From Candidatus Woesearchaeota archaeon (GTDB taxonomy: Archaea > Nanobdellota > Nanobdellia > Woesearchaeales > SKIA01): 64,000 bases of DNA. This document shows positions 45,107-51,385 of this stretch, in pieces. Every line of letters starts with the position of its first letter. Position 1 is the first letter of the stretch. The position numbers were made by a program, and so were the translations under genes. The notes below the pieces were generated by a model. That model made no database searches. It worked only from the letters and a program-made list of their open reading frames with translations, and was not told where the DNA came from. The stretch lies in NCBI GenBank assembly GCA_046704725.1, contig JBJKRI010000008.1:6191-70190 (forward strand), written 5' to 3'.

Positions 45107-45195
45107 GCCTCCGTGGCTCAGTGGTAGAGCAGCTGCCTTGTACGTTCACGCCCAAGGAAAGCAGCAGGTCCCGCGTTCGAATCGCGGCGGGGGCT
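45107..45195 (+). tRNA. tRNA-Thr(UGU) with a 17-nt intron at 37/38 (45143..45159)
   Basis: GCCTCCG/CGGGGGC acceptor stem, GCTC/GAGC D stem, GCTGC/GCAGC anticodon stem, CT-TGT-A^A loop, TTCGAAT T loop, U discriminator, no encoded CCA. TTTATAAG box upstream. Confidence 0.88.
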
Positions 45196-49096: not shown

Positions 49097-50290
49097 ATGG
49101 ATATCAAGGAGAGCGCCGTCAGGCTGCACGAACGCCACCAAGGAAAGCTCGGGACGACGACGCTCGTGCCCCTGAAGACGCGCCGCGACCTGTCGCTCGC
49201 GTACACGCCAGGCGTGGCCGAGCCGTGCCTGCGCATCGCCAAAGACAAGAGCCTCGCCTATGACTATACTCTGAAAGGGCGGACGGTCGCTGTAGTGACG
49301 GACGGAAGCGCAGTCCTCGGCCTGGGGAACATCGGCCCGGAAGCGAGCCTGCCAGTCATGGAAGGCAAGTGCGCGCTCCTCAAGGAATTCGCCGGCGTGG
49401 ACGCCGTGCCCATCGCGCTCTCCACACAGGACCCTGACGCCATCATCGAGACCGTCGAACGCCTCGCGCCGACGTTCGGCGCGATCATCCTCGAGGACAT
49501 CAGCGCGCCGCGCTGCTTCACCATCGAGAAGGAGCTCAAGAAACGCCTGGACATCCCGGTCTTCCACGACGACCAGCACGGCACGGCAATCGTCGTGGCA
49601 GCCGCGCTGCGCAACGCGCTGAAAGTGGTGGGAAAGCGCTTCTCGGACGTACGCATCGTCATCAACGGCGCGGGAGCGGCGGCACAAGCCATCACGCGCA
49701 TCCTCTGCGGAGGAGTCTGCCCGAACGTCATCCTCGTTGACCGCACCGGAGCCATCTACAATGGAAGGGAGAAGCTCGATGAGCACAAGCGAGCCATCGC
49801 GAGAAAGACGAACCCCGAACGACGCAAAGGAAAGCTGTCGGACGTCATCGAAGACGCCGACGTCTTCATCGGCGTATCCGCGCCCAACGTGCTCACGAAA
49901 GAGATGGTGGAGCGCATGGCGGACAACCCCATCGTCTTCGCGCTCGCAAACCCCGACCCCGAGATCGATCCCGCCCAGGCCGCGGCCGCCGGGGCGGCGG
50001 TCATCGCGACAGGACGGAGTGACCACCCGAACCAGATCAACAATGTATTGGCATTCCCGGGAATCATGCGCGGTGCATTGCAGGTGCGCGCGACATCCAT
50101 CACCGAAGGCATGAAGCAGGCGGCGGTGGACGCGATCGCATCGCTCGTGGAGCCCACGACTGATCGCATCGTGCCAGACCCGTTCGACGCCCGCGTCGCG
50201 CCAGCCGTGGCCAAAGCCGTGGCGAAGGCCGCGAAAGAAGACGGTGTGGACCGGGCCCGGGGGGATTCGAACCCCCGACCTACAGCTTAG
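49097..50290 (+). CDS. NAD(P)-dependent malic enzyme (short form)
   Basis: LSLAYTPGVAEPC, VTDGSAVLGLGNIGPEASLPVMEGK, FHDDQHGTA, INGAGAA, FALANPDPEI, NQINNVLAFPG. Confidence 0.95.
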   Translation: MDIKESAVRLHERHQGKLGTTTLVPLKTRRDLSLAYTPGVAEPCLRIAKDKSLAYDYTLKGRTVAVVTDGSAVLGLGNIGPEASLPVMEGKCALLKEFAGVDAVPIALSTQDPDAIIETVERLAPTFGAIILEDISAPRCFTIEKELKKRLDIPVFHDDQHGTAIVVAAALRNALKVVGKRFSDVRIVINGAGAAAQAITRILCGGVCPNVILVDRTGAIYNGREKLDEHKRAIARKTNPERRKGKLSDVIEDADVFIGVSAPNVLTKEMVERMADNPIVFALANPDPEIDPAQAAAAGAAVIATGRSDHPNQINNVLAFPGIMRGALQVRATSITEGMKQAAVDAIASLVEPTTDRIVPDPFDARVAPAVAKAVAKAAKEDGVDRARGDSNPRPTA

Positions 50291-50355
50291 GAGGCTTTAG
50301 CGGAGAAGCCTGCTATCGGTTCCCTGTCGCTCCATCCAGACTGAGCTACGGGCCC
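50252..50355 (-). tRNA. tRNA-Arg(CCU) with a 29-nt non-canonical intron at 28/29 (50297..50325)
   Basis: GGGCCCG/CGGGCCC acceptor stem, GCTC/GAGC D stem. Removing AGGGAACCGATAGCAGGCTTCTCCGCTAA restores ACAGC-CT-CCT-AA-GCTGT. Central helix AGCG/CGCT flanked by 3-nt bulges AC^A and AA^A. Confidence 0.9.
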
Positions 50356-51281
50356 AACAACGCCAGCAATTCGTTTGCTCGACGCCTCTTATCGGGATGT
50401 GCGAGCGGAAAGGTCCTTAAAAAGGTTCGTATAGCATCGTGGCGCCGAATCTGCAAATCCCAAGTCACTGACACTGTATCCGTGGTCGGCGACTTCGCGA
50501 CGCGGCAGTGCGGTTTGTACGCGTGCACCTCATATGCCTTGAGCAGTTCTCGCAATCTCATGATGAATTCCTCATCCTTGGATGTGAAATCGACGAAGTG
50601 CTGTCGGCAGTGAAACGGATCTTTCGGTAATGTGCCGTCCGCGTCGACGAGACCGGCGAAGTACCAAGGAAAAAGTGCAGGATGTTTTTCGATGAGATCA
50701 AGGATTCGCAAACGATGTTTTCTTCCCTGCGCAAAACCAAAAATGTGGTGGAAATACTCGTTGAGCGCTTTGCTCCCGACTGCAAGAACATGCTTTGGCT
50801 TGGTGCAGAGCGCTCCCTGAGATGCACGGTGAATTCCCCTGATTCCGAAGAGCTCGTGGCAGAGGTCATCCATGAGAAGCATTTGCGATTCGTATTCATC
50901 CACGAATGCGATGCGTTTCTTGTTACGCTCGCAGCATCCATCGCCTTGCATATACCTGATAAAATACGCCAGTTTCGGGGTAAGAACAAACGGCAAGCGC
51001 ACCTCCTTCCAACGATAGAAGAATAGCACATCCAGGGATTGAAGGTCCGAAACCAGACCTGGAACCTTCCTGTGAAGCGTTTTTATAACGAACAGCGGGT
51101 ATCGCTTCCTCCGCATGTATCTGTTTATGGTCTGCCCTGATATTCCTATCTCGTTAGCCGAAAGAGGGTGCGCAAGCAGTGATTCGTTGACCCGCTCGCA
51201 GGGGACCTTGATGGTCATCCGATCGGGGAGTCGGAGGATCACGTCCGGGATGGCGATTCGGGGCTCCGAAGGGAATATCAC
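50346..51281 (-). CDS. Free-standing double-motif LAGLIDADG endonuclease-like protein with N-terminal HTH-like segment
   Basis: Motifs LAYFIRYMQGDG and YFAGLVDADG. 43-47% GC in two sampled 60-nt lines versus 63% in a line of the neighbouring malic enzyme gene. Stop codon is tRNA nt 8-10. Start codon is uncertain. Confidence 0.85.
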   Translation of the reverse strand: MIFPSEPRIAIPDVILRLPDRMTIKVPCERVNESLLAHPLSANEIGISGQTINRYMRRKRYPLFVIKTLHRKVPGLVSDLQSLDVLFFYRWKEVRLPFVLTPKLAYFIRYMQGDGCCERNKKRIAFVDEYESQMLLMDDLCHELFGIRGIHRASQGALCTKPKHVLAVGSKALNEYFHHIFGFAQGRKHRLRILDLIEKHPALFPWYFAGLVDADGTLPKDPFHCRQHFVDFTSKDEEFIMRLRELLKAYEVHAYKPHCRVAKSPTTDTVSVTWDLQIRRHDAIRTFLRTFPLAHPDKRRRANELLALLGP

Positions 51282-51385
51282 CTACTTTAGATTTCTTCAA
51301 TCCGTATTAAGCGCGGTGCTGGAGGCTGTCCAGTGCGATTTTTAAAAGGGAATGGTTTTTAAGAAGGCGCAGCGCCCTTACGAGA

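What the first reader, a model, noticed from the sequence alone, without database searches (positions are those of the whole stretch)
50252..51346. Free-standing LAGLIDADG gene overlapping a tRNA-Arg that carries a non-canonical intron: candidate tRNA-intron homing module
Seen: a low-GC (43-47% in sampled lines vs ~63% next door) two-motif LAGLIDADG ORF ends with its TAG inside the first 10 nt of tRNA-Arg(CCU), on the same strand, and that tRNA has a 29-nt intron at 28/29. Established: LAGLIDADG enzymes cut long targets in alleles lacking the mobile insert; free-standing homing endonucleases spread with linked markers (phage T4 SegB acts in a tRNA gene cluster); short archaeal tRNA introns cannot encode their own endonuclease. 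Inference: the intron may destroy the target and protect the host allele while the adjacent gene cuts intron-less tRNA-Arg alleles, so both spread together. This would give archaeal tRNA introns a mobility mechanism.
Basis: partly seen in the sequence, partly recalled or inferred. Interest (0 to 1): 0.82.

Follow-up and report, generated by a model that had tools for sequence, protein, structure and literature searches.

The report
Homing-endonuclease gene docked on tRNA-Arg
A selfish DNA-cutting-enzyme gene sits flush against the arginine tRNA(CCU) gene of this tiny archaeon, as its relatives do in every genome checked; the tRNA's odd mini-intron is a frequent but not obligatory companion, so this is a testable lead on how such introns arise.

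Summary
Window 50252-50355 (-) is a tRNA-Arg(CCU) gene with a 29-nt bulge-helix-bulge intron at 28/29. Window 50346-51281 (-) is an intact two-motif LAGLIDADG gene, and its TAG stop is tRNA nt 8-10. About 33 homologous loci were recovered (Woesearchaeota, Iainarchaeota, metagenomes). Wherever flanking DNA was available, the gene's 3' end abuts a tRNA-Arg(CCU) gene. The gene is rare: 3 of 401 species genomes of the order. Three congeners have the same locus empty, with an intron-less tRNA. I read it as a free-standing homing endonuclease cassette specific for this tRNA locus. It carries its own promoter, plus a TATA box embedded in its last codons that probably re-supplies the displaced tRNA with a promoter.

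- Introns at 27-31 are enriched beside the nuclease gene (15/24 versus 10/54, p = 2e-4).
- Two relative pairs show nuclease gene and intron present together or absent together.
- Elsewhere the anticodon arm alone is remodelled next to the gene.
- But 12 of 33 nuclease-linked tRNAs have no intron.
- The same intron is common in genomes without the nuclease gene.

The cleavage site is untested. I found no published description of this arrangement.

The parts
50252..50355 (-). tRNA-Arg(CCU) gene, 104 nt with its intron; the only CCU isoacceptor in the genome
   Evidence: Rfam RF00005, 48.8 bits; manual parse and BHB scan; no second copy found
50326..50355 (-). 5' exon, tRNA nt 1-28. Nt 1-10 also encode the last two codons (Gly-Pro) and the TAG stop of the nuclease ORF
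50297..50325 (-). 29-nt non-canonical BHB intron at 28/29 (AGGGAACCGAUAGCAGGCUUCUCCGCUAA)
   Evidence: BHB scan: central helix AGCG:CGCU, two 3-nt bulges, 5-bp inner helix. Homologous introns ending CCGCUA(A/G) occur at the same site in other loci
50252..50296 (-). 3' exon (tRNA nt 29-73 plus discriminator base); anticodon CCT at 50289-50291
50346..51281 (-). Free-standing monomeric two-domain LAGLIDADG homing-endonuclease-type gene, 311 aa, GTG start, stop codon inside the tRNA. Residues 1-95 form an extra helical, HTH-like N-terminal domain
   Evidence: ORF; PF14528; AF2 pLDDT 91.8 / pTM 0.89; Foldseek hits to PI-PfuI, I-Tsp061I, I-DmoI, I-SceI; the GTG start is supported by N-terminal alignment with homologues
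50934..50966 (-). LAGLIDADG motif 1 (YFIRYMQGDGC, residues 106-116; catalytic Asp114)
   Evidence: Alignments A1 and A2: G113 invariant, D114 and G115 at least 90% conserved
50631..50663 (-). LAGLIDADG motif 2 (YFAGLVDADGT, residues 207-217; catalytic Asp215)
   Evidence: D213, D215, G216 and T217 invariant in 15 sequences
50417..50423 (-). TATA-like box TTTTTAA embedded in ORF codons Phe-Leu (TTT-TTA), 62-68 nt upstream of tRNA +1. Probable replacement promoter for the tRNA
   Evidence: The box sits at -67 or -75 in nearly all forward-oriented family members. In this 60% GC genome TTA is 0.9% of Leu codons and TTT 10.6% of Phe codons
51305..51335 (-). The ORF's own promoter: upstream element CACTGGACA (51327-51335) and TATA-like TTAATA (51305-51310), 24 nt before the GTG, which implies a leaderless mRNA
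   Evidence: Sequence. CACTGGACA is a genome-wide element upstream of TATA boxes: 26 copies against about 9 expected. It is also present upstream of homologues
51338..51347 (-). Resident TATA box (TTTTAAAAAT), by synteny the original tRNA promoter, now about 1 kb from the tRNA. It marks the left edge of the insertion
   Evidence: Congeners have the same double-TATA spacer between the LPG-synthase gene and the tRNA, with the tRNA 24-25 nt after this box

Best explanation
The ORF is a free-standing LAGLIDADG homing endonuclease gene. Its family, found in DPANN archaea (Woesearchaeota, Iainarchaeota), lives at one address: flush against the tRNA-Arg(CCU) gene.

In this genome a roughly 1-kb single-gene cassette lies between the tRNA's original promoter and tRNA +1. 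The cassette carries:
- (i) its own promoter;
- (ii) an ORF that runs to the junction and borrows U8-A9-G10 of the tRNA as its stop codon;
- (iii) a TATA box written into its last conserved codons, which most likely re-promotes the essential tRNA.

Inferred, not shown: the enzyme cuts tRNA-Arg(CCU) genes that lack the cassette, and break repair copies the cassette in. Because the family tracks one isoacceptor across very different hosts, recognition probably includes the anticodon arm.

The 28/29 mini-intron is an ordinary BHB intron, spliced by the host endonuclease. It is older and more widespread than the cassette. It is over-represented beside the cassette, most simply because an interrupted or remodelled anticodon arm is a cleavage-resistant allele, and because the cassette drags linked tRNA sequence along. 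It is a facultative companion, not a required partner.
For: Enzyme identity:
- PF14528 match.
- PDB sequence hits to PI-PfuI and I-Tsp061I.
- AF2 pLDDT 91.8, and Foldseek hits at E 1e-10 to 1e-6 to intein- and intron-encoded LAGLIDADG enzymes.
- Catalytic Asp114 at least 90% conserved and Asp215 invariant.

Address specificity:
- All homologous loci with flanking DNA abut a tRNA with anticodon CCU. There are 24 distinct loci at the tRNA 5' end on the same strand and 9 at its 3' end on the opposite strand.
- The host DNA ranges from 27% to 60% GC.

Selfish distribution:
- 3 of 401 species genomes of the order carry the gene, plus one partial copy.
- Only 3 non-self homologues turned up among 5.8e9 proteins by word search.
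- ORF GC is about 51% against 60.5% for the genome.

Empty site:
- Congeners G002, G003 and G004 have PHP gene, intron-less tRNA-Arg(CCU), double TATA and LPG-synthase gene, with no ORF.

Movement relative to the tRNA body:
- The L010 and L044 nucleases are 71% identical but sit beside tRNAs only about 70% identical, with different introns.

Embedded promoter.

Link to the intron and anticodon arm:
- 27-31 introns occur in 15/24 forward-oriented linked tRNAs versus 10/54 unlinked ones, Fisher p = 2e-4.
- In nuclease clade A, 9 of 11 members on the tree carry one. The partial G062 copy, not on the tree, also carries one.
- L072 and L084 have nucleases 95% identical. Their tRNAs are identical apart from one D-loop base, except for a wholly replaced anticodon arm plus a 12-nt intron.
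- G323 (with the gene) versus its congener G356 (without): about 11 of 19 anticodon-arm positions differ, against about 5 of 56 elsewhere.
- G062 (gene and intron) versus same-family G235 (neither) have the same anticodon-arm exon sequence.

Splicing: the host tRNA-splicing endonuclease gene is present.
Against: - No cleavage, transcript or population data exist.
- The target position is unresolved. One relative (L058/L046) has a 15-nt duplication of tRNA nt 1-15 bracketing the cassette. The junction is always exactly at a tRNA end. Both facts hint at a break near the D-loop or acceptor end rather than at 28/29.
- Acceptor and anticodon stems of linked tRNAs vary widely, so no single conserved 20-bp target is evident.
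- The intron enrichment is not corrected for shared ancestry. The nuclease tree needs about 7 changes of intron state.
- The anticodon-arm remodelling argument rests on two pairs.
- The window's tRNA differs from its congeners' all along its length, not only in the anticodon arm.
- L048 has lost the motif-1 Asp, so some copies may be inactive.
Confidence: 0.72

Rival explanations
1. Strict collaborative homing. The enzyme cleaves intron-less tRNA-Arg(CCU) genes exactly at the 28/29 intron insertion site. The intron is the immunity determinant. Intron and nuclease gene spread as one module, and this is how the mini-intron moves.
For: - Intron enrichment beside the gene: 15/24 vs 10/54; 9 of 11 in nuclease clade A.
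- Joint presence or absence in G000 vs its congeners and in G062 vs G235.
- The two clade-A members without the 28/29 intron (L044, L045) have a divergent sequence at that site.
- The window tRNA with its intron is closest to that of G062, a nuclease-bearing genome of another family: 93% exon identity, against 83% to congeners.
- Alleles with the intron but no nuclease gene could arise by short-tract conversion or by later loss of the gene.
- Published analogues exist: F-CphI with the psbA intron, and mobE with I-TevIII (PMC6083498, PMC2790892).
- The insertion at tRNA-Thr in Caldiarchaeum brought in a new 24/25 intron (PMC3293823).
Against: - 12 of 33 linked tRNAs have no intron and 6 have only a 37/38 intron.
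- No reverse-oriented member has a 27-31 intron.
- Intron positions vary (27/28, 28/29, 29/30, 30/31).
- 10 of 54 unlinked genes carry the intron behind a native promoter at about -30, with no relic of the cassette.
- tRNA-Arg(UCU) of G021 has the same intron and no nuclease gene.
- Close nuclease relatives sit beside tRNAs with different introns (L010 vs L044).
Confidence: 0.17
2. A domesticated LAGLIDADG protein, either a WhiA-like regulator or a maturase-like helper. It would serve expression or processing of the adjacent tRNA-Arg(CCU) rather than acting as a selfish nuclease.
For: - Strict adjacency to, and probable co-transcription with, one tRNA.
- An N-terminal HTH-like domain.
- WhiA appears among the fold hits.
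- ORFs are intact in most loci.
Against: - Prevalence in the order is below 1%, and close relatives that keep the tRNA lack the gene.
- The catalytic Asp residues are retained.
- GC content is atypical for the host.
- The tRNAs function with or without introns and with or without the ORF.
- Some copies are decaying (L065 is frameshifted, L048 is D-to-A).
Confidence: 0.07
3. A remnant of a larger integrative element (virus or plasmid) that used the tRNA-Arg gene as its attachment site, with the ORF being leftover cargo.
For: - tRNA genes are classical archaeal attachment sites.
- L058 has a 15-nt direct repeat of the tRNA 5' end.
- The malic-enzyme gene on the other side of the tRNA is also absent from the congeners' locus.
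- Sugahara et al. interpreted their analogous insertion in this way.
Against: - No integrase or other element genes lie nearby in any locus.
- The insert is a single gene in all roughly 33 loci, with a base-exact junction.
- The malic-enzyme gene has host-like GC.
- The protein is a LAGLIDADG nuclease, not a recombinase.
Confidence: 0.04

Closest known systems
Free-standing homing endonucleases of T-even phages (SegB in the T4 tRNA cluster, SegF/SegG, MobE): 'intronless homing'
   Same: The nuclease gene is not inside an intron or intein. It sits in a spacer next to a conserved gene that is presumably its target. It has a sporadic distribution, and spread by break repair with co-conversion of linked markers is expected (PMC2988022, PMC2790892).
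   Different: Those are GIY-YIG or HNH enzymes in phage genomes. This one is a LAGLIDADG enzyme in a cellular archaeal chromosome. Its junction with a tRNA gene is base-exact, its stop codon lies inside the tRNA, and a replacement promoter is embedded in its coding sequence. Cleavage has not been shown.
Collaborative / trans homing: F-CphI with the ORF-less psbA group I intron of cyanophage S-PM2; mobE with the defunct I-TevIII intron
   Same: A free-standing nuclease gene lies beside a gene that carries an ORF-less intron. The idea is that the intron interrupts the target and both are co-inherited (PMC6083498, PMC2790892, PMC3984707).
   Different: Here the intron is a 29-nt protein-spliced BHB intron, not a ribozyme. 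Co-occurrence is only statistical (15/24 vs 10/54). Many nuclease-linked tRNAs have no intron. It has not been shown that the intron site is the cleavage site.
Archaeal intron-encoded LAGLIDADG enzymes (I-DmoI, I-Tsp061I, I-PorI) and intein enzymes (PI-PfuI)
   Same: Same fold and monomeric two-motif architecture. Archaeal hosts. The BHB-intron world.
   Different: Those lie inside rRNA introns or inteins and are removed by splicing. This gene is outside the mature RNA and has an extra roughly 95-residue N-terminal domain. Sequence identity is only 13-20%.
Insertion at the tRNA-Thr(GGU) locus of Caldiarchaeum subterraneum (Sugahara et al. 2012, PMC3293823)
   Same: An ORF-bearing insertion abuts the tRNA on the same strand. 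[quoted passage not shown] The locus was polymorphic in the population.
   Different: The authors read the 813-bp ORF as a putative recombinase or plasmid relic. Whether it is a LAGLIDADG protein was not tested there or here. The tRNA and the phylum are different, and that insert has an additional 545-bp region.
Fungal mitochondrial mobile ORF elements that insert at a gene's end and carry a replacement end
   Same: A nuclease ORF is fused in frame to host-gene sequence, and the element restores what it displaces. Here that is the promoter, and in L058 a copy of tRNA nt 1-15.
   Different: Those involve protein-coding hosts and C-terminal replacement. I cite them from my own knowledge and from an earlier scan note, not from a test here.

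Membership tests
LAGLIDADG homing endonuclease (monomeric, double-motif) | Two LAGLIDADG motifs, each at the start of an alpha-beta-beta-alpha-beta-beta-alpha domain | tested here: met
   Motifs at residues 106-116 and 207-217. PF14528 at E 2.4e-9. AF2 model pLDDT 91.8. Foldseek hits to I-Tsp061I, I-DmoI, I-SceI, PI-PfuI and I-AniI at E 1e-10 to 1e-5
LAGLIDADG homing endonuclease (monomeric, double-motif) | Conserved acidic catalytic residue at the end of each motif | tested here: met
   D215 invariant and D114 at least 90% conserved in 15 diverse members. The exception is L048, with GAG in motif 1
LAGLIDADG homing endonuclease (monomeric, double-motif) | Site-specific double-strand cleavage of a long target | not testable with these tools
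   Needs purified protein and DNA substrates
Free-standing homing endonuclease gene (intronless homing) | Not embedded in an intron or intein; a single-gene insertion relative to an empty allele | tested here: met
   The congeners' locus lacks only this ORF between the promoter and the tRNA. No intein or intron context
Free-standing homing endonuclease gene (intronless homing) | Sporadic, horizontally patchy distribution at one conserved genomic address | tested here: met
   3 of 401 genomes. All roughly 33 loci lie at tRNA-Arg(CCU). Found in Woesearchaeota and Iainarchaeota
Free-standing homing endonuclease gene (intronless homing) | Cleaves alleles lacking the gene; unidirectional co-conversion | not testable with these tools
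   Only indirect evidence: anticodon-arm remodelling in linked tRNAs
Collaborative homing module (nuclease plus ORF-less intron) | Consistent co-occurrence of the nuclease gene with the intron | tested here: not met
   12 of 33 linked tRNAs have no intron and 6 have only a 37/38 intron. 10 of 54 unlinked tRNAs have the 28/29 intron. There is enrichment, but no obligate link
Collaborative homing module (nuclease plus ORF-less intron) | The intron insertion site lies within the enzyme's recognition/cleavage site | tested here: inconclusive
   For: isoacceptor specificity and the anticodon-arm hot spot. Against: the 15-nt duplication in L058 and the junction always falling at a tRNA end
Archaeal BHB (protein-spliced) tRNA intron | Bulge-helix-bulge motif with a 4-bp central helix and 3-nt bulges; excision restores a canonical tRNA | tested here: met
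   The motif is conserved with different intron bodies in L010, L011, L054, L083, G021 and others
Archaeal BHB (protein-spliced) tRNA intron | Host encodes a tRNA-splicing endonuclease; splicing observed | tested here: inconclusive
   EndA domain PF01974 found at G000:C3:90975-91235, E 5.5e-31.
WhiA-like domesticated LAGLIDADG regulator | Loss of catalytic residues and lineage-wide vertical conservation | tested here: not met
   Catalytic Asp residues retained. Prevalence below 1% and absent from congeners

The most novel reading that the evidence does not exclude
Free-standing LAGLIDADG nucleases that target tRNA genes are a driving force behind the odd tRNA gene structures of DPANN archaea. 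By cutting the anticodon arm of intron-less tRNA-Arg(CCU) genes, they would select for alleles with non-canonical mini-introns or rewritten anticodon stems, and would spread those alleles by gene conversion with or without the nuclease gene itself. This would give protein-spliced archaeal tRNA introns a DNA-level mobility mechanism. It would also turn the Randau-Soll 'introns protect tRNA genes from mobile elements' idea into a concrete, assayable system.
Probability: 0.27. Interest if true: 0.85.

Novelty: new variant of a known kind. Interest (0 to 1): 0.66.

Why it matters
How archaeal tRNA introns are gained and moved, especially those at non-canonical positions, is a long-standing open question. 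So is whether they protect tRNA genes from mobile DNA. This locus offers a simple, assayable pair: one nuclease, with natural intron-less, intron-containing and stem-rewritten alleles of one tRNA gene.

Independently of the intron question, the cassette shows a neat way for a selfish gene to sit on an essential gene without splicing. It inserts outside the mature RNA, borrows the tRNA's stop codon, and writes a replacement promoter into its own codons.

Enzymes with long, tRNA-gene-specific targets could also be useful as reagents.

For annotation, these ORFs and their intron-bearing tRNAs are routinely missed or mis-called. ARAGORN failed on this tRNA, and the database gene model starts 21 codons late.

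Tried and rejected
1. 'Operator that mimics the target'. A 10-nt exact copy of the spliced junction (GACAGCCTCC) lies upstream of the ORF at 51321-51330, with similar matches in L044 and L010. Rejected. CACTGGACA is a genome-wide element upstream of TATA boxes (26 copies), so only 6 nt of the match are left unexplained. The combined p over 9 loci is about 0.05.

2. Relic of the tRNA 5' end upstream of the window ORF, as in L058. None found.

3. Co-conversion of the whole tRNA in the window. The window tRNA is 83% identical to congeners' and 88-93% to some nuclease-linked ones. This is suggestive only. The sequence is short, and the congeners are themselves divergent (about 55% protein identity).

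4. First control tally. G062 was counted as lacking the nuclease gene by whole-genome search, but it carries the gene's C-terminus at a contig end. The control was corrected to 10/54.

6. The P0002 locus could not be read (no DNA).

7. Literature searches found no description of LAGLIDADG genes flanking tRNA genes in archaea. This is absence of evidence, in an open-access library only.

8. Plain MFE folding of the pre-tRNA is uninformative (z = -1.3).
Full report
**What is there**

On the minus strand, window 50355..50252 is a tRNA gene (Rfam RF00005, 48.8 bits) with 29 extra nucleotides in the anticodon arm.
- ARAGORN in default mode finds no tRNA in the window. With introns allowed it mis-calls this one as Ala.
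- By hand the gene reads acceptor GGGCCCG, D arm, A27-C28, insert, A29-G30-C31, loop CUCCUAA, GCUGU, T arm.
- I scanned for bulge-helix-bulge geometry: a 4-bp helix followed on each strand by a 3-nt bulge cut after its second base. The scan gives one solution that restores a normal tRNA. The central helix is AGCG:CGCU, the bulges are ACA and AAA, the inner helix has 5 bp, and the splice is at 28/29. The intron is 29 nt (window 50297-50325).
- It is the genome's only CCU isoacceptor. AGG codons are in use, so the gene must work.
- A tRNA-splicing endonuclease gene is present.

The ORF 50346..51281 (-) encodes 311 aa.
- It matches PF14528 and has two LAGLIDADG motifs.
- With a 15-sequence alignment it folds at pLDDT 91.8 / pTM 0.89.
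- The model is a monomeric double LAGLIDADG domain. Its best structural matches are intein- and intron-encoded homing endonucleases: TliVMA, PI-PfuI, I-Tsp061I, I-DmoI, I-SceI and I-AniI (by sequence).
- The two catalytic aspartates are conserved across the family.
- Residues 1-95 form an extra helical domain with a weak HTH signal.
- The TAG stop is tRNA nt 8-10.
- ORF GC is 50-52%, against 60-66% around it.

**The decisive comparative result**

The protein is rare. A word-indexed search of 5.8 billion proteins gave only three non-self relatives. A full HMM search gave 31 cluster representatives below E 1e-30.

I recovered DNA for about 33 distinct homologous loci:
- assemblies L010-L013;
- seven species genomes titled Woesearchaeota, Iainarchaeum or uncultured archaeon;
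- 33 metagenome contigs;
- one more found by accident (G062).

Wherever flanking DNA exists, the ORF's 3' end abuts a tRNA with anticodon CCU. There are two arrangements:
- In 24 distinct loci the ORF runs into the tRNA's 5' end on the same strand and stops at whatever stop codon the tRNA offers. This is usually TAG at nt 8-10, and otherwise falls at nt 13-15, in the intron or in the anticodon loop.
- In 9 loci it abuts the tRNA's 3' end, with the tRNA on the other strand. On the protein tree this orientation arose at least twice. That is plausible because the acceptor stem reads the same from either end of the gene.

**Empty site**

Three genomes of the same genus have the same neighbourhood: PHP-domain gene, tRNA-Arg(CCU), a spacer of roughly 75 nt with two back-to-back TATA boxes, then the LPG-synthase gene. 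They have no ORF, and their tRNA is intron-less.
- In the window, the same double-TATA spacer is still next to the LPG-synthase gene. The ORF lies between the second TATA (51338-51347) and the tRNA.
- Across the order, only 3 of 401 species genomes have an intact family member, plus the partial copy in G062.
- Rarity, odd GC, an empty site in relatives, a single-gene insert and a constant address in hosts from 27% to 60% GC together are the signature of a free-standing homing endonuclease gene.
- They argue against a housekeeping factor and against a relic of a larger integrated element. No integrase or other element genes lie nearby.

**How the cassette coexists with an essential tRNA**

The ORF has its own promoter. 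The element CACTGGACA (51327-51335) lies 16 nt upstream of TTAATA, which lies 24 nt upstream of the GTG.
- CACTGGACA turned out to be a genome-wide motif that sits 12-20 nt upstream of TATA boxes (26 copies, about 9 expected). It also precedes the homologues in other hosts.

A TATA-like box TTTTTAA lies inside the ORF's conserved (K/R)-F-L-K codons. It sits 67 nt (clade A) or about 75 nt (clade B) upstream of tRNA +1 in nearly all forward-oriented members.
- In this 60% GC genome it is spelled TTT-TTA.
- Genome-wide, TTA is 0.9% of Leu codons and TTT is 10.6% of Phe codons. This argues for selection at the DNA level.
- I infer that the cassette supplies the displaced tRNA with a promoter, giving a leader of about 40 nt. 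This is inferred, not shown.

**The intron question**

Among forward-oriented linked tRNAs, 15 of 24 have an intron at 27/28 to 30/31. Six linked tRNAs in total have only the canonical 37/38 intron, and 12 of the 33 have none. None of the 9 reverse-oriented ones has a 27-31 intron.

As a control I took 60 tRNA-Arg(CCU) genes from other genomes of the order.
- 54 were both parsable and free of the nuclease gene. I verified this by whole-genome profile search and by reading their upstream DNA.
- 10 of the 54 (19%) carry the same 28/29 intron, with the same ...CCGCUA(A/G) 3' end, behind an ordinary promoter at about -30.
- About 12 carry D-loop introns.
- A tRNA-Arg(UCU) in G021 also has the 28/29 intron and no nuclease gene.

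So the intron is enriched next to the nuclease gene (15/24 vs 10/54, Fisher p = 2e-4; pattern-matched 10/16 vs 10/54, p = 0.001). In nuclease clade A, 9 of 11 members on the tree carry it. These counts are not corrected for shared ancestry. The intron is clearly neither necessary for the nuclease gene nor dependent on it.

**Indirect evidence on the target**

The only sequence that defines the CCU isoacceptor across such diverse hosts is the anticodon region, so recognition probably includes it. This is inference. Two pairs of close relatives support a hot spot there:
- L072 and L084 have 95%-identical nucleases and 89.5%-identical DNA. Their tRNAs differ at only one base outside the anticodon arm. 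The anticodon stem is completely different, and one of the two has a 12-nt 37/38 intron.
- G323 has the nuclease gene and no intron. It differs from its congener G356, which lacks the gene, at about 11 of 19 anticodon-arm positions but only about 5 of 56 elsewhere.

Two further contrasts point the same way:
- G062 (nuclease gene plus 28/29 intron) and same-family G235 (neither) share the anticodon-arm exon sequence GCGACAGCCUCC.
- Congeners without the nuclease gene keep identical anticodon arms while other stems drift.

This fits selection for cleavage-resistant alleles, by intron or by stem rewriting, at a target in the anticodon arm.

Other facts point elsewhere:
- L058/L046 carries a 14/15-identical copy of tRNA nt 1-15 upstream of the cassette (p = 0.005), like the direct repeat in the Caldiarchaeum case.
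- The cassette junction is always exactly at a tRNA end.
- Close nuclease relatives sit beside very different tRNAs (L010 vs L044).

Where the enzyme cuts therefore remains open.

**Comparison with what is known**

Free-standing homing endonucleases and 'intronless' or 'collaborative' homing are established in phages (PMC2988022, PMC2790892, PMC6083498, PMC3984707). Archaeal LAGLIDADG enzymes are known from rRNA introns and inteins.
- The closest published observation is the polymorphic insertion at tRNA-Thr(GGU) of Caldiarchaeum subterraneum. There an ORF abuts the tRNA, is flanked by a repeat of the tRNA 5' part, and brought in a new 24/25 intron. The authors interpreted it as a plasmid or recombinase relic (PMC3293823).
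- I found no paper describing LAGLIDADG genes docked on archaeal tRNA genes.
- Earlier notes of this scan describe the same theme in other genomes. I re-tested two of their claims here. The embedded promoter was confirmed. The 5'-end duplication was seen in one relative but not in this window.

**Verdict**

This is a tRNA-Arg(CCU)-specific free-standing homing endonuclease cassette (confidence about 0.7). The intron is a frequent, plausibly protective and sometimes co-inherited companion, not an obligate partner. Strict co-homing gets about 0.17.
- It is a new variant of a known kind of element.

Noticed in passing
own genome C5:231656-232517 (outside the window; locus L006): A second, distantly related LAGLIDADG gene (25% identity, split by a frameshift near C5:232215) starts about 110 nt downstream of a tRNA-Thr(CGU) that carries a canonical 21-nt intron. 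It is preceded by the same CACTGGACA promoter element. Both LAGLIDADG genes of this genome therefore flank tRNA genes.
   Followed up: partly
window 51327-51335 and 25 other sites in the genome: CACTGGACA occurs 26 times in the genome (about 9 expected). Most copies lie 12-20 nt upstream of a TATA-like box. It also precedes homologous nuclease genes in low-GC Woesearchaeota, often as the tandem CCACTGGTCACTGGACAT. It looks like a lineage-wide upstream promoter or regulator site.
   Followed up: partly
window 49097-50290 (+): The malic-enzyme gene lies between the PHP gene and the tRNA only in this genome; congeners have the PHP gene directly next to the tRNA. Its reading frame runs 39 nt into the tRNA 3' end on the opposite strand, so its last 13 codons are antisense tRNA. 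Both flanks of this tRNA have been rearranged.
   Followed up: partly
window 45107-45195 (+): A second intron-containing tRNA (Rfam 57.9 bits, about 17 extra nt in the anticodon loop). Default ARAGORN missed it, and with introns allowed labelled it Ser(tga). By eye the anticodon looks like UGU (Thr).
   Followed up: no
own genome C6:51032-51135: ARAGORN calls this Arg(cct) with an intron. By eye it has insertions in the D-loop and between the D and anticodon arms, and the anticodon loop reads CCCUGGA. It is probably a multi-intron tRNA-Gln(CUG). About a third of this genome's tRNA genes carry introns.
   Followed up: no
L058 2293-2307 (= L046, Woesearchaeota CG_4_10_14_0_2_um_filter_33_13): A 15-nt copy of tRNA nt 1-15 (GGGCCCGTGGCCTAG, against GGACCCGTGGCCTAG in the gene) lies about 100 nt upstream of the nuclease ORF start. 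[quoted passage not shown]
   Followed up: partly
L072 2219-2302 vs L084 448-519: Two metagenome loci have 95%-identical nucleases. Their tRNAs differ at one base outside the anticodon arm, but the anticodon stem-loop is completely exchanged and one has a 12-nt intron.
   Followed up: yes
L051 1878-1978; L053 1102-1210; C-terminal tails of P0010, P0032, P0033, P0037, P0041, P0050: More distant roughly 300-330-aa LAGLIDADG subfamilies (E 1e-23 to 1e-33 to this family's profile) also end inside tRNA genes. One example is a tRNA-Val(GAC) with an insert at the variable-loop/T-arm border. Several protein tails are translations of antisense tRNA 3' ends.
   Followed up: partly
window 51218-51281: The public protein cluster for this gene (P0001, 290 aa) starts at the internal ATG at 51218. 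Alignment with homologues and the promoter spacing favour the GTG at 51281 (311 aa).
   Followed up: partly
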